This document shows positions 6-11,872 of a stretch of 64,000 nt of DNA, one piece after another; position 1 is the first letter of the stretch; each line of letters starts with the position of its first letter. Position numbers and translations under genes: made by a program. The notes under the pieces were generated by a model that had not been told where the DNA came from, did no database searches, and saw only the letters and a list, made by a program, of their open reading frames with translations. Origin of the DNA: a virus; IMG/VR virus record IMGVR_UViG_3300046724_000152, positions 11,508 to 75,507 of that record; one strand, written 5' to 3'.

Positions 6-2732
6 ATGGGCGGTCTTTGTCAACCCAAGCCACAAGTTACCGCTACTAACCAAACGCAGACCTATACGCCAGCCCCGCAGATAGGAGCCGCTGGCACTCA
101 AGCCCTCAATATGGCGCAGGGGGCGGCGCAGCAGCCGTTCCAGATGCCAGCAGCGCCGGTCGCTGGCTTCAATCCATTCCAGACTCAATCGTTCAATCAG
201 ATCCTGGGCATGCAGGGCAGCCTGAATAACACCGCCGGAGCCAATCTCCAGACGGCACAGGCTCCGATTACGCAGGACGACATCAACCAGAATATGAATC
301 CGTATGCGGATCAGACCGAAGCCGACATCAAGAAGTACATCTTCGATCCGCAGCGGGTTCAGACCATGGGGCAGTCCACCGCCATGGCCGGTGGTGTCGG
401 TGCTGATCGTCTTGGCTTGGTCAGCGGCAACCTAGACAAGACACAAGGCGATATCCTGGCCCAGGCCCGATCCGGCTTCTATGGACAAGCGCTGTCGGCG
501 GCTCAGCAAGCCAAGCAGCAGGCTCTTCAATCCGCTCAAGGCTGGCAGAACCTGCAAACCGGCAATCTGCAAGCCACCAACGCCCTGGGCATGGTTGGCA
601 CTCAGCAACAGCAGCAGACCCAAGCCGAGCTGATGAGCCCGTATCAGCAGATCCTGGCTCAGATCGCCTATCCCTATCAGCAAGCTCAGTTCCTGGCTGG
701 CATTACCGGAGGTCTGGCCGGTGCCATGGGTGGCACCACAACGGGTGTTGGAAACACGTCCACAACACCAGCCCAACCCAGCCTGTTTAATCAGATTACC
801 GGTCTAGGTGTCGCCGGGGCTGGTATTGCCGGTGCAGCCGGTGCCTTTGACGGCAGTGGCGGTTCGACCAGCACACCAAACAGCCCTAATGCCTCGATGT
901 ATACCGGCCCTGCAAACGAAGCCGGATTTGGTCCGACCTATTACCGATCCGGTGGTCCTGTTCATTATGCCAGCGGTGGGAGTGACGATGAAGAACCATC
1001 ACTGTCGCCTTACGGGGATCTGAATCCCATCCCCCGCATCCCGCTGCACATGACATCGGGGCAATCGCACAACAATCTCAACCTGAATCCGCCGAGCCAG
1101 AGCGGTGGGTCTAGCTCCTCCGGCGGCATTGGCGATATAGCAAAGATGGCCTCCGCCGTCATACCGTTTCTCCTCAAACGAGGCGGTACGGTTGCCGGTG
1201 GTGGCGCTGTCAGTCCCTATGATGCTGGTATGGGTTTTGCCGGAGGCGGTGAGACTGAGGGATTGAGCCCTATTCCGTACATCCCGATGCAAGACACGTC
1301 AGGCCAGTCTCATAACAATCTCAATCTGAACCCTCCCACTAGTAGCGGAGGATCAAGCTCAAGCGGCATGGGCGACATGGCGAAGATGGCATCAGCCGTG
1401 CTGCCGCTCCTTATGATGAAGCGAGGCGGCAAGGCTCCTCATGGCTATGCCACAGACGGCGGCGTGGACGTAGAGGAATACTCGCCTGATGACTTCAATC
1501 CGATAGATGCCGCTGCCCCAGCAGAGCCAGATTACAGCCGTCCTATAGAGCGCGAAGCCCCGAACCTTGGCATGTGGCCATTCAATCGCGGCCAAGCTGA
1601 CTACAAGGGCGATGTGACGATGTTTCCGCATACTGCGGCTCCGGCAACGGCTGGAGCAGCCCAAGCCACGCCTTCACCGGCAAACGCGCCGGTTGGTGAC
1701 CAAGCCGAGATACTGCGTCAGGCTGGTCTTCTCCGTGATCCGCTGAGAAGGGAAGAGGCCGCTAATGCTCCAGGACCGTTCGATACTTCAGCTCTCAAGG
1801 GGCCATACAATCAGGCCGCGTTAGGCTCTCCAGCACGGGGTCCTGTATCCACGGATACAACCCCGAGAACGGCTCCGCCTCCGGCCCCATCTCAGCCCGA
1901 CGTTCAGGTGGCCAGCGGCGCAGACCGCACTGGCGGCTATCCCAATCGCAGCCGATTGGCTGGACTCAATTCCGATATGAAGCTCAGCGATTTCAGTATG
2001 CCAAGAAGTGCCCAGCCCTATCCGGATGCCTTGAGCCGTGACTTTGGCCAGCGAGCAACGCGGTCGCCATGGATGGCATTGGTTCAGGCCGGTTTGAAGA
2101 TGGCGCAAAGCACCAAGCCCGGTGTTGCTGGCTTGGCTGAGGGTGCCGAGTCCGGTGTTGCCTATCTCGACAAGCAGCGTGGCGAGCTTCGCAGCGAGCA
2201 GCAGATCAACCAGAAGGCGGAAGAGCTATTCCGTCATGCCCAGGGTGAACTGAACAAATACACTCGCACGACTCCGCACGAAGCGAGGATGGAGGCTTAC
2301 CAGAGTCGTCTTCTTGATCAGGGCAAGTATCAGTTTCTGAACTACACCGACCCAGTAACTAACGAGGTAAAGGTTGGTCGCGCCAATACCAAGACCGGAG
2401 TCATTACCGATCCTGCAACTGGTGAACCAGTAAAGACTGGCCGATTGCTGGGCCGCGCATCCAGCCAGGGCGGCCTGCCTCCGAGCAGCATCGTGTCTAT
2501 CCAGAATGCGGTTAACAACGATCCGACTATTCCAAGAGACAAGAAAATTGCGGAGGTCAACAGGCGAGTGCAGGAAGCCACTTCGTTCGTTGAAGCGCAA
2601 CGTCAGCGTGGTGTAGCGCCGCCTCCAGACGGAGCCCTTGAGTTTCTCAAAAACAACAAGGATAACCCAGCCATAAGGGCTCAGTTCGAGGCAAAATACC
2701 CAGGATGGGCGGCCAAGCTGCTTGGTGAGTAA
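6..2732 (+). CDS. Internal virion / DNA ejection (pilot-like) protein, Gln/Gly/Ala-rich
   Basis: 908-aa ORF, low-complexity Q/A/G N-terminus, repeated xxGG motifs, internal duplication, directly upstream of another large virion-type gene; typical of podovirus ejection proteins. Confidence 0.6.
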   Translation: MGGLCQPKPQVTATNQTQTYTPAPQIGAAGTQALNMAQGAAQQPFQMPAAPVAGFNPFQTQSFNQILGMQGSLNNTAGANLQTAQAPITQDDINQNMNPYADQTEADIKKYIFDPQRVQTMGQSTAMAGGVGADRLGLVSGNLDKTQGDILAQARSGFYGQALSAAQQAKQQALQSAQGWQNLQTGNLQATNALGMVGTQQQQQTQAELMSPYQQILAQIAYPYQQAQFLAGITGGLAGAMGGTTTGVGNTSTTPAQPSLFNQITGLGVAGAGIAGAAGAFDGSGGSTSTPNSPNASMYTGPANEAGFGPTYYRSGGPVHYASGGSDDEEPSLSPYGDLNPIPRIPLHMTSGQSHNNLNLNPPSQSGGSSSSGGIGDIAKMASAVIPFLLKRGGTVAGGGAVSPYDAGMGFAGGGETEGLSPIPYIPMQDTSGQSHNNLNLNPPTSSGGSSSSGMGDMAKMASAVLPLLMMKRGGKAPHGYATDGGVDVEEYSPDDFNPIDAAAPAEPDYSRPIEREAPNLGMWPFNRGQADYKGDVTMFPHTAAPATAGAAQATPSPANAPVGDQAEILRQAGLLRDPLRREEAANAPGPFDTSALKGPYNQAALGSPARGPVSTDTTPRTAPPPAPSQPDVQVASGADRTGGYPNRSRLAGLNSDMKLSDFSMPRSAQPYPDALSRDFGQRATRSPWMALVQAGLKMAQSTKPGVAGLAEGAESGVAYLDKQRGELRSEQQINQKAEELFRHAQGELNKYTRTTPHEARMEAYQSRLLDQGKYQFLNYTDPVTNEVKVGRANTKTGVITDPATGEPVKTGRLLGRASSQGGLPPSSIVSIQNAVNNDPTIPRDKKIAEVNRRVQEATSFVEAQRQRGVAPPPDGALEFLKNNKDNPAIRAQFEAKYPGWAAKLLGE

Positions 2733-5700
2733 TGGCCAACGTCTTCGACCAGTTCGATTCGCCAGCACCTCAGCCCGCACCTGTGGCAGCAGCACCTACC
2801 GGTGCCGCGCAGTCTAAGAATATCTTCGATCAGTTCGATAAGACTCCAGCCCCAGAGGCTCCAGCTACGCCAGAGCCGGAACCCATCATGCCAGGAATTC
2901 TGGAGGCGGGAGCCCAAGGTCTTGGTCATGCCTTTACCGGCCTGGGACAGGGTGCCGGGATGGTGGCCGGTGTTACTCCGGAGGCCGAGAAGCCCAGTCC
3001 AGCAGCCGCTCCATTGAAATGGAGCGATGTGCTGTCGCCACAGGCCAAGCTTGCTCCAAAACTGGCCTATCAGTTTGCCGAAGGAGCCCCGGTTATTGCC
3101 GGTGGGTTGCTTGGTGCTGGCGCTGGAGCCCTGACCCCGGTGCCGGGTGGAGCTATCATGGGCGGCATGGGTGGCGCTGCCTTGGCCGAAGCCGCCAAGA
3201 CCATCGGCCCTGCCTACGCCGAGGAGCTTAAGGCTCATCCTGGCGACAAGGAGGGGGCCTGGACCAGGGCTTTGCAAAAGACCGGGGTTTCTAGCGCTGC
3301 TTCTGGCCTAGGCTGGGGCCTGTTTGGCTTGGGATCCAAGGCCCTGGAGCCGCTCAAGCATCTGCTGTTTCAGTCCGTGGCTGTCCAGCCTGGAGTCTCG
3401 GTGGGTGCCAAAGCCGCAACCAATGTCATAGAAGGCAAGCCTGTCACCGAGGATCTCGGCCAAGCCTATGCCCAAGGTGTGGTTGGCACTGCCATTCCGG
3501 CGGCAGGGCACAAGCTGGCCAAGGGGGTCCTGGCCGATAACCGGGTCTCACCAACCGGCCTCAATGCCGAGCAGATGCGGAATGTCGTGGAGATGAACGA
3601 TGGCATGCTGCCTCGCCTTGAGGCTAACGCTAACGATCCATGGCATCCGGAAGAAACCAGAGCCCACTATGCGGAACAAGCCCGCTTGATGCGGGATCAG
3701 AATGCCGAATACACCCAGATCCTTGCAGGACCACGCAGTCCGGTGGTGGCCAAGCTCAAGCAATGGATGGATGGCTCTCTGGGCGACATCGTCAACGACG
3801 CCCAGATGAAGCTGACGCCGATGGCGGCCAGGAGCGGCTCCAACGAAGCCAGAGCCATTGCCAGGGACTTTGCCGACAGCAAGCGGTCATCGCGCTGGCA
3901 GTGGGCCAGAGTCGATACGATCATCAAGAAGAACTTCACCGAAGAGCAGCAAAAGCGGATGTGGGAGGCTGGCGACGAGGAAAGCGTCATCCAGGAGATG
4001 GGCAATGCCGACTTTGTTGCACAGCAACATGCCGAAGGCCGGGGGCTGGCTCAGCTTACCCCTGCCGAAAGATCGGCTATGGAGGGACTTCAGGCAGAGT
4101 CTCGTCAGTCCTGGGATGCTGCCGTCGACGCCGGGATCGTCAGTGGCGAGGGCCGGAAATACTATGCCCCGAGAGAGTTTCTGCGGGTTGCCTCCGGCTC
4201 TGAAGGCCCTCCCACGCCCCGCCCCAAGGTCTCCAGTGGCACCGATGCACCACCCAATTCCTTAACGAAGATCGGCACTAATCTCAGGACCACCTCGCCA
4301 AGCACTAAGCGCAGAAAATACCTGTTTGCCGAGGAAACCGAAGCGGCTGGCAAGAAGATCCTGGGCGAGGATGCCGAGCTTGCCAGGAATATCCGTGCCC
4401 TGCCATTGGCTTCAGCCCGCCTGAGAGATGCCGTGGCGGGCCGGACTCTGATCAACAAGATCAAGGAGGCTGGTGCCAGGACCGGCGAGGAAACCGTTCA
4501 CGAGGGGGCGGTGCCATCCGACAGTCCCTACAAGTGGTTCACCGTCGATCATCCCGCCTTCACGACCTGGAAGCCCAAGCTTGCTCCTGATCCGGCAACC
4601 GGCAGACTCTCTGCGGTCAAGGACGAGAACGGCAACGTCGTCTTCGAGAAGAAGCCGCTCTATGTCAGGTCCGATTTCGAGGGTCCGCTGCGGTCGGTCT
4701 TAGCCAAGGATCAGGGGCAAATCTACAATGGCCTGATGAATCTCAAGGCCAAGACCATGTCGGTCATCATGTACTCGCCGCTGATCCATAACGCGGTGGA
4801 GTGGGGCCGTGCCTTACCGGCGATGCCGGGTAAGGTTCTGACCTTCAGGATCTATTTCGATGGCGACCGGGCTCTGAAGAACATCCCGCTCATGCAGGAT
4901 GCCGTCAGGAATGGCCTTGTTCCGATTGGAGGCCGCGCTGGCAGGCAAGACATCACCTCGATGATGGAAGCGCCAACCTTGGGACCACGCAAATCCTGGA
5001 CCGGTGAGACCCTGGCGGCAATTCCCGACCTGTTCAGCAAGGCGGCTGGCAATACAGTCAGGCGCAGGATCGAGACCCTTGGCGACTTCTGGCACAACAC
5101 CCTGCTGTGGGATCAGGTCGCCCGCCTTCAGATGGGTCTCTACACGAACTTCAGGGAGAGCCTGATTGCCAAGGGGCATGACGAGCAGACCGCTGGCCGT
5201 GCTGCGGCGCACCTAGCTAACCGCTATGCCGGTGCCTTGCCAGCGGAGTCGATGTCTGAGAATGCCAGGAAGTTCGCCAATCTGGCCCTGTTCTCCAGGA
5301 CCTTCACGCTTGGCAACATCGGTGCCATGAAGGATATGTTTGTCGGTCTGCCGAGGGATGTTCAGGCTCAGATCGGCAGAGACGCCGGTCCAGAAGCCCT
5401 GAAGAAGATCCGGAGCTATGCCAAGCGCAAGGCAACGATGACCGTCGCTCTCGATCTTGGCCTTATGTATGCCGGTAACTCTTTGCTTCAGGATATTTCT
5501 GACAGGTTACGCGGCGATAAGTCCCTTGGCGAGATCGGCATGGGCTATGTCGATAGGATTGCAGCCCTGTTGAAGAAGACCAAGGAGCATCCGTTCGAGG
5601 TTCTGGCTCATCCGTTTGACTCCGTCGAGAGTCTTACGTCCACATCGGAGAACGAACCGGGCAAGAAGGATCGTGTCCTGGTCGGCTATCAGCAGGATGG

Positions 5701-7456: not shown

Positions 7457-7761
7457 TAGTCTTTCCTTGGATTAACGATTGGCGGGACTGCTTTATTCAG
7501 GCTGAAGTATTTGCATGATGGCGTGTCGAACGGAATTTTAGATCCATCCTTCTCCATCATGGTCGCGTATTTCTCACACTTACCGTTCTTCAGTGTACCT
7601 CCTCGATGAGTGCCCCGATTGCTCTTGTAGCCATTGAATTCGTAATGCTCGCACTCACGACAGGTTGTCCTCTTCGGCCCTGTTCCAGCCCAGAAGGCCA
7701 TTCCAGGCGGAGTCTTGTCGCGTAAGTCATCGACTGATTTATCGACTACCGTTAGTTTCAT
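7456..7761 (-). CDS. Hypothetical Cys-containing protein
   Basis: CRECEH...C...C pattern; coupled within the operon. Confidence 0.5.
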   Translation of the reverse strand: MKLTVVDKSVDDLRDKTPPGMAFWAGTGPKRTTCRECEHYEFNGYKSNRGTHRGGTLKNGKCEKYATMMEKDGSKIPFDTPSCKYFSLNKAVPPIVNPRKD

Positions 7762-8495
7762 ATTTCTTCCCTGTATGACGCTTCGACTCCAGGAGGAAGG
7801 TCTCCGGTTGCACGGCGATACTCTCGTGCCAGCTTCAGGATGGCTTCCTTGATTTCGTCGTTGGCTCCCATTTCTTGGAGTGCGGCTTGTGCGTCAACGA
7901 CAACGAGCGTTTCTTTGGTCTTGAGGCTGACCGCTCGTGAGAAGCCGCCGGTAATTTTGACGTGGGTTTCTTTCTCCGTGAGGGCTGCTGCTCTTTGGGA
8001 TTTCTCGAAGTCACGGAAGGCAATATCGGCATCTGCGACATGAGCCGCAACATCAACTCCAAGTTCTCCGTGATTAGCTGACTCAATTGCTTCACGTTCG
8101 AGACGCTCAGCTTCACGCGCTTTGATCTCGGCTTCTCTAGCAAGTCCAGCAGCAACTCGATTTGCTTCTTCTCTAATGCGTCTTTCTTCTTTAATAAAAG
8201 CCGTGAGTCGATCCGATAGCGTATCAACGACTTTAGAAATTCTTGCGGCGACTGGTCGGTATGAATTGTTGATTTCTTTGACTTCGTCATTAAGTGGTCC
8301 AACTCTTTTTTTGCGCTCATCTTCCATATCCTGGATAGCTAATTTTCCTCTATCGAGGAAAAGCTTGGCTTCTTTAGAAGATTCACTATTGATAACTGGA
8401 TTTTCTGCCATCCAAGCAGAAATATCTTTCATCGTTTGATCAGTAATTTCGATCATTCCTGGTGGAGAATTATGCCCGATAGCTGCATCGTTCAT
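7758..8495 (-). CDS. Coiled-coil phage protein (IGHN N-terminus), recombination-module associated
   Basis: 245-aa ORF with GGTGAGGT RBS and a long charged helical region. Confidence 0.6.
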   Translation of the reverse strand: MNDAAIGHNSPPGMIEITDQTMKDISAWMAENPVINSESSKEAKLFLDRGKLAIQDMEDERKKRVGPLNDEVKEINNSYRPVAARISKVVDTLSDRLTAFIKEERRIREEANRVAAGLAREAEIKAREAERLEREAIESANHGELGVDVAAHVADADIAFRDFEKSQRAAALTEKETHVKITGGFSRAVSLKTKETLVVVDAQAALQEMGANDEIKEAILKLAREYRRATGDLPPGVEASYREEI

Positions 8496-8500
8496 TTATT

Positions 8501-9138
8501 GGACCTCACCATGCCATGCCATGCCTAGCCCCGCCCAACCGGGCCTCTCCATTCCGCACCCTGTATCGCCGCGCCATGCCTCTCCTGGCCGGACCACACC
8601 TCACCCAGCCATGCCTCGCCCCAGATCGCCATGCCTTGCCACACCGCACCCGACCCGGCCTTGCCCTACCTTGCCAGATGTCGCCTCACCCAACCATTCC
8701 ACGCCTGACCTGACCTCACCCAGCCATGCCGCTCCTCGCCACAGATCGCCAGACCTAGCCGTGCCTCACCGCACCTAACCATCCCAGACCACGCCAGACC
8801 ACGCCCTGCCCGAGGCCAAGCCACACCTCACCACACCTCGCCTGTCCCTACCCAACCTAGCCCTATGCAGACATGCCTCGCCCAACCTCGCCATGCCTTA
8901 CCTAGCCAAGCCTTGCCAGATATCGCCATGCCGCACCCTTCCAAAGATCGCCATGCCTCACCAATCCGCACCTCACCAAGCCAATCCCAGCCTTGCCTTG
9001 CCGAACCAAATATCGCCATGCCCTACCTAACCCCGCCATGCCTTGCCGCGCCGCACCTTGCCCGATGTCGCCATGCCATGCCCAACCTTGCCAAAACAAG
9101 CCAGTCCTAACCCTACCGCGCCAGAACATGCCAGAGCC
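8501..9138 (-). repeat. Phased pentanucleotide array (GGY-NN)n, candidate non-coding guide-RNA array
   Basis: Hand count: ~125 consecutive 5-mers, ~113 starting GG on the minus strand (~102 GGY, 10 GGA, 1 GGG), last two bases variable; one 2-nt phase slip at 8811-8817; fills the gap between two co-oriented genes. Confidence 0.9.
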
Positions 9139-9141
9139 TTA

Positions 9142-9175
9142 ACCTAGACCGCTCCATTTCTGGAACGGTCTAGGT
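9142..9175 (-). ncRNA. 15-bp hairpin leader between the Cas7-like gene and the array
   Basis: Minus-strand RNA ACCUAGACCGUUCCA-GAAA-UGGAGCGGUCUAGGU; the GNRA loop and a G-U pair work only on the minus strand. Confidence 0.75.
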
Positions 9176-9187
9176 AAAGCATTGAGA

Positions 9188-9805
9188 TTACTCGTAATTA
9201 ACGATGCCAAATCGGCCAAATGTTGGTCGATGATCACCGATTCCCACTAATCTACCAGCACTTTCAATAGTTTCTCGCAAAATATTTCGATCAATATATT
9301 CCGGCAACAAAACCATCAGCTCGATAGTCGCCTTCCAGCCAGCCCTGAAGGCTGGACGGACTCTGTTGATGCCCTGACGTTGGACAGTGACCCGGCACTT
9401 ATCGAGGTAATCCCACTCCTTGGTACCCATGCTGGCAAGGTGTGTGGTTGCGACGATACCGGCCTTGTAGAGATCCATCGCACTCTTTCGTGGCGAGCGT
9501 GGATCCTGCCGGAATTTTGCAGCGTTGATGATCGAGCCGCGAAGATACAAACCAGGAAGGCAGATGTAGCCTTCCTCATTACGGTAGACATAGCTCTCGA
9601 CGTTGTCGGTTTTCTTCGCCTTGGAGTTCTTGGCTGCTGCGCCTTTTGCATCAACCTCTTCGGCATTCCAGCGATGGAAGATCAGATCCGCTGCTCCCTC
9701 GATGGTCACCTCTACCGAGTATGGCTCGCTGAAGGAAATCGGCTCCTCGCCGCCATTGGTCGGCTCCTTGATAACAATAACCTTAGCTGTGCCTTGTTTA
9801 GCCAT
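9188..9805 (-). CDS. Solitary Cas7/RAMP-fold-like RNA-binding protein
   Basis: RAMP-like motif order: VEVTIEG..LIFH strand, YICLPGLYLRGSIINAAK, RVRPAF..W.ATIEL, C-terminal Gly-rich loop AGRLVGIGDHRPTFGRF; 205 aa. Confidence 0.75.
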   Translation of the reverse strand: MAKQGTAKVIVIKEPTNGGEEPISFSEPYSVEVTIEGAADLIFHRWNAEEVDAKGAAAKNSKAKKTDNVESYVYRNEEGYICLPGLYLRGSIINAAKFRQDPRSPRKSAMDLYKAGIVATTHLASMGTKEWDYLDKCRVTVQRQGINRVRPAFRAGWKATIELMVLLPEYIDRNILRETIESAGRLVGIGDHRPTFGRFGIVNYE

Positions 9806-9824
9806 AAGACTTCAATCTCCGTTG

Positions 9825-10076
9825 TTAAGTTACTTTCTCTTTCTCAGCATAGTTTCTCAGTGCTTTTCTTATTGCATCAGCAGCTTCTTGTACCTCCTTC
9901 TGAGCTTGCTCAAGTTGACCGATAGCTTCTGTTGGAAAGTCAGGAGCTACAGGCATCATAGTGACCCAACTGACAATCTGTTTTGCGTCACTCTGAATGT
10001 GCTTGGCACGAATGCCGATGACCGAGAGATACGGTGCAACAAGCCGATCCCATTCCGTCAATGTTTGATGTTTCAC
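9825..10076 (-). CDS. Hypothetical protein
   Basis: 83-aa ORF in operon upstream of the Cas7-like gene. Confidence 0.5.
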   Translation of the reverse strand: MKHQTLTEWDRLVAPYLSVIGIRAKHIQSDAKQIVSWVTMMPVAPDFPTEAIGQLEQAQKEVQEAADAIRKALRNYAEKEKVT

Positions 10077-10327
10077 TTAACCCTCCAGCAACGAAAGCCT
10101 TCAGGGGTCTTGCGGATTGAGAATTTGGTGCCTTCATTGCGACGGCAGAAGTAAGAAGCAGCGCCTCGGCAACGAGCGGTCAACCTCATATCTTCGCCAA
10201 CCAGGAAACTGTCACCAACCTTCATGTTAGCAAACGGCCAACTAAGCCAACTGGCCAAGCCAGGAGGTGGTGTAGGAACGTCGCTCTCGATCTTAAAAGC
10301 CTGCTTGATCAGTCGCGGTCGTTTCAT
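10073..10327 (-). CDS. Small putative DNA-binding protein
   Basis: KIESDVP.P...WPFANMKVGDSF...RCWR pattern common in phage small DNA-binding proteins; GGAGA RBS supports ATG at 10327. Confidence 0.55.
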   Translation of the reverse strand: MKRPRLIKQAFKIESDVPTPPPGLASWLSWPFANMKVGDSFLVGEDMRLTARCRGAASYFCRRNEGTKFSIRKTPEGFRCWRVK

Positions 10328-10404
10328 GTGGTCTCCGTTGTTGAATTGTTCATATCCCAAATTGGGTGTTGCAGTCAAGCCCGGAATGGGCTACCAGGAA
10401 GTCC

Positions 10405-10590
10405 ATGACACTTGAAACATTTCTGATAATACGCGGGATCAGCACAGCGCAGTTTGCCAAAACGTCAGGCTATCCCTTCGCCACCGTGGCCAAGTGGCGG
10501 CAACGGATCAGGATTCCACGTCCTGCCGCCATGCTGAAGATTCAGAAACTCACAAAAGGAAAAGTGAAGCCTCATGACTGGTACCGGTGA
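10405..10590 (+). CDS. Cro-like HTH regulator
   Basis: TAQFAKTSG...TVAKWRQRIRIP...IQKLTKGKVKPHDW; sits at the divergence point. Confidence 0.75.
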   Translation: MTLETFLIIRGISTAQFAKTSGYPFATVAKWRQRIRIPRPAAMLKIQKLTKGKVKPHDWYR

Positions 10591-10999
10591 ATGGCGGTTC
10601 TGGACCGCTGATAAAGTCGAGAAAGTTAAGACGATGTGGGCGGACGGGTATTCCGCCTCACGGATTTCCGAGGAGATCCCCGGTTCGACTAAGAACTCCA
10701 TTATTGGTAAGGTGCATAGGCTGCACCTGCCGGAGCGAAAGAAGCGAAAAAATCCAAGTCACTTCAAGCGGGAGAAGGTCAGGGCCATGGTCATGGTCAA
10801 GCCCAAGCCAAAGCCAGCCCCGAAACCCAGGCCCAAGGATGGCATCCCATTCCTGGAGGCCGATTCCACCACCTGCCGGTCGGTCCAAGGGCGGGATCCC
10901 AACGGAATCCTGGTTTGGTTCTGTCCCAAGCCCAAGGCGGCCAATCAGTCGTTCTGCCCCCACCATCTGGGCATCTATTACACCGGGAGCCGCCGATGA
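10574..10999 (+). CDS. gcrA: GcrA-family cell-cycle regulator
   Basis: WT.DKVEKVKTMWADGYSASRIS...TKNSIIGKVHRL N-terminus and C-terminal C..FC..FCPHH motif. Confidence 0.85.
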   Translation: MTGTGEWRFWTADKVEKVKTMWADGYSASRISEEIPGSTKNSIIGKVHRLHLPERKKRKNPSHFKREKVRAMVMVKPKPKPAPKPRPKDGIPFLEADSTTCRSVQGRDPNGILVWFCPKPKAANQSFCPHHLGIYYTGSRR

Positions 11000-11550
11000 C
11001 GATCAAGGAGATCACCGAGAATGCCAAGCAGATCAGGGACCGGCTCAGACACCCGCCGAATGCGGTTCATGACACTGGTATTGACCTAACCAAGAAATCC
11101 AGCTCGCATCGTGGTGACGAGCCCAATCCGGATCCACCGATCAAGAAGATGCTTGAGATGCTTCCGGAGCCACCCAGAAAGCGCTATCAGTTCGCGCCTT
11201 CCAGGAAGTGCCTGATCTTTGATGATATTCTAGAGGCCGTCTCGACGCACTATGGAGTCTCGATAGAGGCCATCAGGGGTCCAAGCAGGCGGACCCACAC
11301 TGGTTTTGCCCGCTTTGTCGTGGTTCACCTTGCCATCAAGCTGTCCAAGAAGCCCTCGCTCTCCGCCATAGGCAGGAACCTGAACAAGGACCATACTTCG
11401 ATCCTTCATGCCAGGAACCGCATCAAAGCAATCATTGCTGGCAATGCCCAGGTAGCAGCCGAGGTCAAGATGCTGGAGACGTACCTTGAAAGACTCCATC
11501 ACTATCGATCTTCCATTCCCTCCGAGCGTCAATTCTATTTGGAGGGGTAG
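10996..11550 (+). CDS. Protein with DnaA C-terminal (domain IV) HTH
   Basis: ILEAVSTHYGVS..AIRGPSR...AR...SLSAIGRNLNKDHTSILHA; ATGA overlap with gcrA. Confidence 0.8.
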   Translation: MTIKEITENAKQIRDRLRHPPNAVHDTGIDLTKKSSSHRGDEPNPDPPIKKMLEMLPEPPRKRYQFAPSRKCLIFDDILEAVSTHYGVSIEAIRGPSRRTHTGFARFVVVHLAIKLSKKPSLSAIGRNLNKDHTSILHARNRIKAIIAGNAQVAAEVKMLETYLERLHHYRSSIPSERQFYLEG

Positions 11551-11872
11551 TGGCAAGAGGGTCTACCGGACCAAGGAGTACATCTCCTGGCTCACCAACG
11601 CCAATGGCCACTGGCTGCTCCAGCGAAGCTCCATGCCGGTCAGATCCATCCCAGAGCATTATTCGCTCAAACTGATCTTGCATGCCCCTGACAAGCTGAT
11701 CAGGGATGTCGGCAACTACGAGAAGGTGTCATCCGACTTCCTGCAAATGGCGAGGATCGTCCGAAACGACTGTCTGTGCCTCGATCTTCATGTCGTCTGG
11801 GGCAGCTCCGCAGATGCCCCTCACGGGGCCAGAATGATCGTAAGTCCGATGGAATTGGAGGGTACCTACTAG
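11486..11872 (+). CDS. rusA: RusA-like Holliday junction resolvase
   Basis: IDLPFPPSVNSIWR N-terminus and RDVGNYEK...D...ND motif. Confidence 0.75.
   Translation: MKDSITIDLPFPPSVNSIWRGSGKRVYRTKEYISWLTNANGHWLLQRSSMPVRSIPEHYSLKLILHAPDKLIRDVGNYEKVSSDFLQMARIVRNDCLCLDLHVVWGSSADAPHGARMIVSPMELEGTY

What the first reader, a model, noticed from the sequence alone, without database searches (positions are those of the whole stretch)
8501..9805. Candidate RNA-guided system: solitary Cas7/RAMP-like protein plus a GGY-NN pentamer array
Seen: a 205-aa gene with RAMP/Cas7 motif order and a C-terminal Gly-rich loop (GIGDHRPTFGRF) is followed on the same strand by a hairpin and ~630 nt of phased pentamers. 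By hand count ~113 of ~125 begin GG and ~102 begin GGY, while positions 4-5 vary freely. It is neither a simple microsatellite nor a repeat-spacer CRISPR. Established: Cas7 proteins polymerise along guide RNA with a fixed nucleotide step. Inference: each subunit binds one constant GGY and displays the NN, so successive dinucleotides spell a discontinuous target code (about 20-24 informative nt per unit). No cas1/2/3/5/6/10 was recognised in the window, so the output may be binding or silencing (rival phage, host genes) or CRISPR interference rather than cleavage. From memory, a similar phage system has been reported recently under the name VIPR; I cannot verify that here, so novelty needs a literature check.
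Basis: partly seen in the sequence, partly recalled or inferred. Interest (0 to 1): 0.97.

Follow-up and report, generated by a model that had tools for sequence, protein, structure and literature searches.

The report
Phage VIPR system: Vipr plus vrRNA array
A soil phage carries a small Cas7-like protein and a 632-base array of GGY-NN pentamers; this is a new, unusually compact example of the VIPR RNA-guided DNA-silencing systems published in 2026, not a new kind of system.

Summary
On the minus strand, a 205-aa gene (9805..9188) is followed by a strong hairpin and by 126 in-phase pentamers (9132..8501). Of these, 114 start GG and 103 start GGY.

- **Protein:** it is a Vipr homologue. A family profile matches the solved SUSP1 Vipr protein (E 1e-17). 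The AlphaFold model (pLDDT 93) matches Csm3/Cmr4/Cas7 (Z about 11). The residues that grip the two G's and the Y in SUSP1 Vipr are kept.
- **Co-occurrence:** 139 of 153 homologous loci have a same-strand GGYNN array within 1 kb of the gene.
- **Local features:** about 10 guide units lie head to tail in one register. They are separated only by GGCGA plus one non-GG pentamer (YMTNN), not by a roughly 40-nt tail. No accessory (vap) gene was recognised.
- **Not shown here:** no target was found and no RNA data exist for this phage, so function rests on homology.

Earlier notes of this scan cover this same stretch of the same genome; none seen concerns other DNA.

Verdict: real, and a new member of a known kind.

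The parts
9188..9805 (-). vipr gene: a 205-aa minimal RAMP (Cas7-like) protein. The G-loop GIGDHRPTFGRF lies at residues 188-199 and the thumb beta-hairpin at about 133-153.
   Evidence: The single sequence matches PDB 36pp_D 'SUSP1 Vipr protein' at E 1.9e-5, and the family profile matches it at E 1.1e-17 over residues 32-205. The AF2 model has pLDDT 93. Foldseek top hits are Csm3 and type VII Cas7, and VIA-align gives Z 11.2-9.3 to Cmr4, Csm3 and Cas7. It also matches phrog_4652 at E 3e-17 and has no Pfam hit.
9140..9176 (-). Hairpin with a GAAA loop between the vipr stop codon and the array.
   Evidence: RNA fold -35.5 kcal/mol, z -6.6. No U-tract follows it, and the terminator scan did not call it. 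A strain variant in run X21 carries a different sequence at this place that is also self-complementary (CCTAGCCAGGA-CTAA-TCCTGGCTAGG), but this rests on one low-depth contig. The closest IMG/VR relatives parsed showed no comparable long hairpin on reading; none was folded.
8501..9132 (-). vrRNA array: 126 GGYNN pentamers in one register, with a 2-nt slip at 8812-8811.
   Evidence: The array is identical in contigs of four other soil and rhizosphere runs, except for one in-phase 10-nt insertion.
9063..9132 (-). Unit 1: 14 pentamers, two of them degenerate (GTTCT, GTTTT), ending in GGCGA-CATCG.
9008..9062 (-). Unit 2: 10 GG repeats plus the boundary pentamer TATTT.
8943..9007 (-). Unit 3: 12 GG repeats plus the boundary pentamer TCTTT.
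8918..8942 (-). Unit 4: a short unit of 4 GG repeats plus the boundary pentamer TATCT. It may be a remnant.
8863..8917 (-). Unit 5: 9 GG repeats plus a degenerate 10-nt boundary, GTCTG CATAG.
8741..8862 (-). Unit 6: 10 + 13 GG repeats joined across the 2-nt slip (possibly two guides), ending in GGCGA-TCTGT.
   Evidence: It contains the tandem GGCGT-GGTCT duplication, which has a third copy in run X21.
8676..8740 (-). Unit 7: 12 GG repeats plus the boundary pentamer CATCT.
8621..8675 (-). Unit 8: 10 GG repeats plus the boundary pentamer TCTGG.
8561..8620 (-). Unit 9: 11 GG repeats plus the boundary pentamer TACAG.
8501..8560 (-). Unit 10: 12 GG repeats, running up to 5 nt before the ATG (8495) of the next gene.

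Best explanation
This is a VIPR (Viral Interference Programmable Repeat) system of a complete ~75.5-kb tailed phage from soil. The gene at 9805..9188 encodes a Vipr protein, a single-RRM RAMP related to Cas7. The 632-nt stretch downstream on the same strand encodes about ten vrRNAs.

The mechanism is inferred by homology to the studied SUSP1 and P. fulva systems:
1. The array is transcribed with the operon.
2. Vipr protomers polymerise along the RNA, one per pentamer.
3. Each GGY is flipped out and held between two neighbouring protomers. Here the contacts would be H44, R150, D191, H192 and R193.
4. Each NN is left exposed.
5. The exposed dinucleotides pair with double-stranded DNA while every third target base is skipped (NNxNNx...). 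This forms a gapped R-loop that blocks transcription of a competing phage, satellite or prophage.

What is specific to this locus is shown directly by the sequence. The guides lie head to tail in one pentamer register. Each is closed by GGCGA (usually GGCAT-GGCGA) followed by a single pentamer YMTNN that lacks the GG.

My inference is that this one unbound pentamer ends a filament and is where a host RNase cuts. The ~40-nt pseudoknot tail of type II vrRNAs would then be replaced by a 5-nt stop. This probably corresponds to the 'staggered array' architecture that the discovery paper mentions.
For: **Protein homology**
- The single sequence matches PDB 36pp_D (SUSP1 Vipr) at E 1.9e-5, with the G-loops aligned. 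A 73-sequence family profile matches it at E 1.1e-17 over nearly the full length.
- The AF2 model has pLDDT 93 and the order beta1, small helical insert, helix-1, beta-hairpin thumb, G-loop, beta4.
- All top structural matches are Cas7-family RAMPs.
- The SUSP1 residues shown by cryo-EM and mutagenesis to read G1, G2 and Y3 are H17, R138, D177, W178 and R179. They align to H44, R150, D191, H192 and R193.
- Across 73 diverse family members these positions are H in 59, R in 72, D in 67, aromatic F/Y/H in 58 and R in 71.

**RNA**
- There are 126 in-phase pentamers, 114 GG and 103 GGY, with NN entropy about 1.9 bits. This is far above shuffles.
- Units hold 9-13 repeats, within the published 9-16.
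- The array meets the published caller's criterion of at least 4 tandem GG[C/T]NN units.

**Co-occurrence**
- 139 of 153 homologous loci (73 from genomes, 80 from IMG/VR) have a same-strand array within 1 kb of the gene.
- Only 18 arrays lie in the remaining 2.5 Mb.

**Context**
- The record is a virus record with CheckV completeness 100%, and it encodes a large terminase and a portal.
- There is no Cas1, no Pfam RAMP match and no CRISPR-like repeat.
- No guide matches the phage's own genome better than shuffled guides do. The paper likewise reports no self-targeting for the guide sets it checked.
- The locus is kept without change in contigs of four further soil and rhizosphere runs.
Against: - No RNA data exist for this phage, so transcription, processing and RNP formation are untested.
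[quoted passage not shown] - The skip rule itself could not be re-derived for this clade.
- The locus lacks two features of the studied type II systems. There is no long conserved 3' tail or pseudoknot, and no recognisable vap gene. None of the window's neighbouring genes recurs next to vipr in the 153 loci.
- Two contact positions differ from SUSP1: W178 is H192 here (F in most relatives) and E71 is L86 here (E in most relatives).
- The published type (I-VII) could not be assigned.
Confidence: 0.88

Rival explanations
1. It is a VIPR-like RNP that acts on RNA, by binding or cleaving transcripts as type III Csm3/Cmr4 backbones do, rather than silencing double-stranded DNA.
For: The nearest solved folds are the RNA-targeting Csm3, Cmr4 and type VII Cas7. 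D40, in the beta1-alpha1 loop where I recall Csm3/Cmr4 carrying their catalytic Asp (my own knowledge, not aligned here), is invariant in the 33 closest relatives. DNA targeting has been shown only for type II systems.
Against: D40 is D in only 35 of 73 diverse members and P in 22, and it is P in SUSP1 Vipr. It is therefore not a family-wide catalytic residue. The direct sequence relative is the DNA-binding SUSP1 Vipr. The paper infers DNA targeting from sites found on both strands.
Confidence: 0.06
2. The system regulates the phage's own genes or host genes, with timing as in a CRISPRi-like circuit, and is not a weapon against rival mobile elements.
For: The locus sits inside the early recombination operon, and the array runs into the next gene's ribosome-binding site. 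No rival-element target was found.
Against: No guide matches the phage's own 75.5-kb genome better than shuffled guides; the fraction of controls reaching the observed score is 0.26-1.0. The host is unknown, so host targets could not be tested. Published natural targets are satellites, prophages and other VIPR loci.
Confidence: 0.04
3. The array is a decaying or non-functional pentamer satellite, or a G-rich structural element, left beside a RAMP gene.
For: One unit has only 4 repeats, one boundary is degenerate, and there is a 2-nt slip and a slippage-type duplication. No expression data exist.
Against: The register is kept over 632 nt, and 8 of 8 clean boundaries follow GGCGA. The array is identical in four other runs. 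The protein keeps all its key residues. Gene and array co-occur in 139 of 153 loci.
Confidence: 0.02

Closest known systems
Type II VIPR of Escherichia phage SUSP1 and the P. fulva prophage (bioRxiv 10.64898/2026.04.26.720920; structures in 10.64898/2026.04.26.720927; PDB 36pp)
   Same: A homologous ~200-aa Vipr protein with the same G-loop motif (GxGD-aromatic-RPxFGRF) and the same thumb arginine. GGYNN repeats on the same strand next to the gene, with 9-13 repeats per guide. Phage-encoded. No cas genes. No self-targets.
   Different: The relationship is distant, at E 1.9e-5 for the single sequence. Here about ten guides are packed head to tail with 5-nt boundaries, instead of ~100-nt vrRNAs that each carry a ~40-nt pseudoknot tail. 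No vap1-like neighbour was recognised. W178 is H here and E71 is L here.
'Staggered vrRNA arrays' (Fig. S18 legend of the discovery paper)
   Same: [quoted passage not shown] This is what the single-pentamer boundaries here imply.
   Different: Only the legend is held, not the figure or the sequences. I cannot tell whether the boundary motif, the register or the Vipr clade are the same.
Cas7-family backbone subunits of class 1 CRISPR effectors (Csm3, Cmr4, type VII Cas7, Cas7-11 domains)
   Same: RRM core, thumb hairpin and glycine-rich loop (Z 9-11). One protomer per fixed step of guide RNA, with periodic base flipping.
   Different: The step is 5 nt rather than 6, and three guide bases are flipped out per step. 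There is no repeat-spacer array, no Cas5, Cas6, Cas10 or Cas1, and no match to Pfam RAMPs. Sequence identity is 8-16%.
Phage DSL-LC04 (OR003939.1), the closest named record
   Same: It has a 205-aa homologue at 58.5% identity and GGYNN repeats in the 320-nt gap just upstream on the same strand.
   Different: Its array is upstream and short. The gene is annotated there as 'helix-turn-helix transcriptional regulator', and the array is not annotated.

Membership tests
VIPR system | Vipr protein: sequence homology to an experimentally studied Vipr | tested here: met
   PDB 36pp_D SUSP1 Vipr: phmmer E 1.9e-5; family profile E 1.1e-17 over residues 32-205 against 5-189.
VIPR system | Minimal RAMP fold: a single RRM core, a thumb and a glycine-rich loop, about 20 kDa | tested here: met
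   205 aa. AF2 pLDDT 93. Z 11.2 to Cmr4, 11.1 to Csm3 and 10.4 to type VII Cas7. Foldseek E 7e-7 to Csm3.
VIPR system | Residues that read G1, G2 and Y3 (SUSP1 H17, R138, D177, W178, R179) | tested here: met
   They align to H44, R150, D191, H192 and R193. They are conserved across 73 family members. W is replaced by H here and by F in most relatives, which keeps an aromatic residue.
VIPR system | Tandem GGYNN (YNNGG) repeats, at least 4 and typically 9-16 per vrRNA, in non-coding DNA beside vipr | tested here: met
   126 pentamers, 103 of them GGY. Units hold 9-13 repeats. The array is on the same strand and starts 56 nt after the stop codon.
VIPR system | GGY constant and NN hypervariable | tested here: met
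   Entropy by position is 0, 0, 1.37, 1.89 and 1.86 bits. 16 different NN occur.
VIPR system | Gene and array co-occur across homologues | tested here: met
   139 of 153 loci have a same-strand array within 1 kb.
VIPR system | Not associated with a CRISPR array or cas genes | tested here: met
   No Cas1 or Pfam RAMP match in the 75.5-kb genome. No CRISPR-like repeats.
VIPR system | vrRNAs are expressed and bound by Vipr | not testable with these tools
   All 24 runs that hold the locus are DNA runs; no RNA holder is listed.
VIPR system | Targets obey the 1-nt-skip code (NNxNN...) and lie in competing mobile elements | tested here: inconclusive
   No match above shuffled-guide controls in 1.9 Mb of local sequence. 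Six collection scans gave only hits that look like chance.
VIPR system | Accessory vap gene next to vipr (present in six of the seven types, by my reading of 'six vap genes' for seven types) | tested here: inconclusive
   The neighbours (83-aa and 101-aa ORFs upstream, a 245-aa phrog_10477 protein downstream) recur in essentially none of the 153 loci: a single weak match, 5.7 kb from vipr, for the 101-aa ORF.
VIPR type II (SUSP1 / P. fulva clade) | Each vrRNA ends in a conserved ~40-nt tail with a pseudoknot | tested here: not met
   The boundaries are one 5-nt pentamer after GGCGA. No Rfam structure was found.
VIPR type II (SUSP1 / P. fulva clade) | Close Vipr phylogeny with SUSP1 | tested here: not met
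   The single sequence aligns only over its C-terminal 70 residues, at E 1.9e-5.
Class 1 CRISPR-Cas effector (Cas7) | Repeat-spacer CRISPR array plus Cas5, Cas6, a large subunit and adaptation genes | tested here: not met
   There are only three short tandem repeats elsewhere in the window, and none is CRISPR-like.

The most novel reading that the evidence does not exclude
The tail-less, register-keeping array may represent a distinct way of making guides. One long transcript would be coated by Vipr, and a single non-GG pentamer after GGCGA would act as the only stop and cut signal. Guide length would then be set by where the GG code lapses, not by a structured tail, a ribozyme or a dedicated nuclease. 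If so, the minimal vrRNA needs no handle at all. Alternatively, this clade is an unclassified VIPR type that lacks a vap gene and is tied to phage replication and recombination modules.
Probability: 0.25. Interest if true: 0.5.

Novelty: new member of a known kind. Interest (0 to 1): 0.3.

Why it matters
This locus shows that VIPR systems can be recognised from raw sequence, and it adds a complete soil-phage example from a very large clade. That clade has 6,743 clusters at 90% identity and 1,131 representatives at 50% identity with E <= 1e-3. It is far from the E. coli and Pseudomonas systems studied so far.

Its compact array has ten guides in 632 nt with 5-nt boundaries. If these guides are processed as proposed, it is a natural template for multiplexed, tail-less vrRNA arrays. 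It would also be a test case for what ends a Vipr filament.

The analysis also exposes an annotation error: the homologue in Phage DSL-LC04 is labelled an HTH regulator.

It does not change the picture of how VIPR works.

Tried and rejected
**Target searches by the published NNxNN rule, each with shuffled-guide controls**
- Own genome: nothing.
- 153 homologous loci plus the own genome, 1.5 Mb: nothing. The perfect 3-nt-skip 'hits' are the array matching itself.
- Four whole related phage genomes, 339 kb: nothing.
- Five IMG/VR scans with 9 NN (18 fixed bases): two hits in total. One has its skip bases on codon position 2 and 3 of 6 extension matches. The other lies in an AT-rich 142-kb phage with 0 of 2 extension matches. 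Both are read as chance.
- One metagenome scan with 10 NN: four hits in contigs of 29-36% GC and one in a ~40-nt tandem satellite. All are read as chance.

**Other tests that gave nothing**
- A clade-wide test of skip 0, 1 and 2 with 122 guides against 1.5 Mb showed no difference from shuffled guides. The skip rule could therefore not be re-derived here.
- No RNA holder is listed among the sequencing runs.
- Rfam gave no hammerhead or any other family in or around the array.
- The sigma-70 promoter scan found none in 7600-10600.

**Technical dead ends**
- The first AlphaFold run, on 33 close homologues, gave pLDDT 54 and was discarded. The second run, on 73 diverse sequences, was used.
- Single-sequence locus searches found nothing, so an alignment was needed.
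- Assignment to types I-VII failed. No supplementary files are held, and the figures are not available.

**Readings considered and rejected**
- A coding reading of the array was rejected. The ORFs through it are 85 aa or shorter on both strands, and a 5-nt period does not fit codons.

Full report
**1. What is in the sequence**

All features lie on the minus strand.
- An ORF of 205 aa runs from 9805 to 9188.
- Twelve bases after its stop codon comes a hairpin at 9176-9140 with a GAAA loop. It folds at -35.5 kcal/mol, z = -6.6.
- From 9132 to 8501 the sequence parses into 126 consecutive pentamers in one register, broken only by a 2-nt slip at 8812-8811.
- Of these pentamers, 114 begin GG and 103 begin GGY.
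- Positions 4 and 5 carry 1.89 and 1.86 bits of entropy.
- GGYNNGG occurs 89 times, against 13 +/- 3 in dinucleotide-preserving shuffles.
- Nothing similar exists elsewhere in the window or in the whole 75.5-kb genome.

**2. Grammar of the array**

Twelve pentamers lack the GG.
- Eight of them (CATCG, TATTT, TCTTT, TATCT, TCTGT, CATCT, TCTGG, TACAG; consensus YMTNN) each follow a GGCGA repeat. Five of those eight GGCGA repeats are themselves preceded by GGCAT.
- Two (GTTCT, GTTTT) look like degenerate repeats.
- Two adjacent ones (GTCTG CATAG) form a degenerate boundary.

These boundaries cut the array into about ten units of 9-13 repeats. There is also one short unit of 4 repeats and one double unit of 10 + 13 repeats.

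This explains why GA and AT are the commonest NN.

Related phages have a longer version of the same ending, GGCGA-GGATA-CTTTG followed by 10-15 more bases (L075, L082, L133). Across 153 related loci, the gaps between GG runs are strongly biased to multiples of five. In none of the 153 fetched relatives do the 5-nt interruptions form such a consistent boundary class; there they look like degenerate repeats (GCNNN, TGNNN).

**3. The protein**

- Pfam finds nothing. PHROGs gives only phrog_4652, of unknown function.
- The sequence matches the solved 'SUSP1 Vipr protein' (PDB 36pp_D) at E 1.9e-5 through its C-terminal third, with GIGDHRPTFGRF aligned to GVGDWRPRFGRF.
- A profile of 73 diverse homologues matches the same chain at E 1.1e-17 over almost the full length.
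- With that alignment, AlphaFold2 gives a confident model (pLDDT 93, pTM 0.83).
- Its order of elements is that of a RAMP: beta1, a small helical insert, helix-1, a long beta-hairpin (the thumb, 133-153), alpha2, a glycine-rich loop and beta4.
- Foldseek's top hits are all Csm3 or type VII Cas7 (E about 1e-6).
- The Foldseek-independent search gives Z 11.2-9.3 to Cmr4, Csm3, Cas7 and Cas7-11 domains.
- The cryo-EM paper names the SUSP1 residues that hold the flipped bases:
  - H17 and D177 hold G1.
  - R138 and W178 hold G2.
  - R179 holds Y3.
- These align to H44, D191, R150, H192 and R193 here, and the positions are conserved across the family.

**4. Do homologues carry arrays?**

The family is large. 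It has 6,743 clusters at 90% identity and 1,131 representatives at 50% identity with E <= 1e-3.

I fetched 73 loci from prokaryotic assemblies and 80 from IMG/VR. In 139 of the 153, a GGYNN array lies within 1 kb of the gene on the same strand. It is upstream in 88, downstream in 91 and on both sides in 42. Only 18 arrays lie in the other 2.5 Mb.

**5. Literature**

The system is published as VIPR.
- The discovery paper (10.64898/2026.04.26.720920) describes:
  - Vipr as a minimal RAMP;
  - vrRNAs of 9-16 YNNGG repeats with a 3' tail;
  - recognition of dsDNA by the NN with one target base skipped;
  - transcriptional silencing of rival phages and satellites;
  - seven types with varied arrays, including 'staggered' arrays in which one vrRNA ends where the next begins.
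- The structural paper (10.64898/2026.04.26.720927) shows one protomer per repeat and the gapped R-loop triplex.
- A third paper (10.64898/2026.10.15.759431) shows phage-satellite competition. It also gives the vrRNA caller and target scorer that I reproduced.
- A fourth (10.64898/2026.10.21.760802) recovers 99 VIPR-like clusters from entropy periodicity.

**6. Context**

- The genome is an IMG/VR virus record of 75,507 bp that CheckV rates complete. It encodes a large terminase and a portal.
- It occurs in at least 24 soil and rhizosphere DNA runs.
- In contigs of four of these runs the locus is identical apart from one in-phase 10-nt insertion.
- There is no Cas1, no Pfam RAMP match and no CRISPR-like repeat.
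- The gene after the array (8495..7758) matches phrog_10477, annotated 'exonuclease', with a weak Mu Gam-like signal.
- None of the window's neighbours recurs beside vipr elsewhere, so I recognise no vap gene.
- In relatives the usual neighbours are AAA_24, DUF669, a ResIII/DEAD helicase and RusA. That is the phage replication and recombination module.

**7. Targets**

I used the published NN?NN scoring with shuffled-guide nulls. No guide matches the phage's own genome. The paper likewise reports no self-targeting for the guide sets it checked. No guide matches the 153 loci or four whole related phage genomes. Six exact-pattern scans of IMG/VR and JGI metagenomes gave only hits that look like chance. 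The natural targets and the host remain unknown.

**8. Judgement**

Membership in VIPR is met on every feature that could be tested: protein homology, fold, contact residues, repeat code, co-occurrence, absence of CRISPR parts and viral host. Expression and targeting could not be tested or were inconclusive.

It is not a type II system, because it has no pseudoknot tail and only a distant relationship to SUSP1 Vipr. Its published type cannot be assigned, because the figures and tables are not held.

The compact array with 5-nt boundaries and no recognised vap gene is the only part that might go beyond the papers. I rate that at about one chance in four.

Noticed in passing
window 8496-8515 (minus strand): The last pentamers of the array (GGTGA GGTCC) supply a Shine-Dalgarno-like GAGG 8 nt before the ATG at 8495 of the next gene. 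The array and the downstream recombination gene are therefore directly abutted in one operon.
   Followed up: partly
window 8783 and 9182, runs X21 and X15: One soil run carries an in-phase 10-nt insertion, a third copy of GGCGT-GGTCT. A low-depth contig joins a near-identical vipr gene to a different but also self-complementary hairpin. Another contig diverges inside the array. Together these hint at strain-level turnover of guides.
   Followed up: partly
L161 (Phage DSL-LC04, OR003939.1) 2680-3618: The closest named homologue (58.5% identity) is annotated 'helix-turn-helix transcriptional regulator'. The 320-nt unannotated gap upstream holds GGYNN repeats. This is probably a mis-annotated VIPR locus.
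   Followed up: partly
G001:C1:38637-39011 (the genome of L133): A second, distant vipr-like reading frame (33% identity, one in-frame TAG) lies in a 96-kb relative that already has a full vipr gene.
   Followed up: no
L067 6536-7350; L070 4671-9600; L104; L122: Some relatives have very long arrays: an uninterrupted run of 132 GG pentamers, most likely the L067 array (an Acidimicrobiales MAG; the run was not traced to its locus), and six arrays in L070 (a Bathyarchaeia MAG).
   Followed up: no
related loci L020, L033, L141; window 11486-11872: In many relatives vipr sits between AAA_24, DUF669, a ResIII/DEAD helicase and RusA genes. The ORF at window 11486-11872, which reads as RusA-like to me (a PPSVN motif; it was not scanned against Pfam), has tblastn hits in 10 of the 153 loci. 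DUF669 was recently linked to repair after CRISPR cleavage (PMC13687109, title and abstract only).
   Followed up: partly
153 related loci: Gaps between GG-pentamer runs cluster at multiples of five (5, 10, 15, 20, 25, 30 nt). The tails therefore tend to keep the pentamer register across the clade.
   Followed up: partly
window 9686-9688 (residue D40): D40, in the beta1-alpha1 loop, is invariant in the 33 closest relatives but is P in SUSP1 Vipr and in 22 of 73 diverse members. From memory, this is the region where Csm3/Cmr4 carry their catalytic Asp; no residue-level alignment was made.
   Followed up: partly
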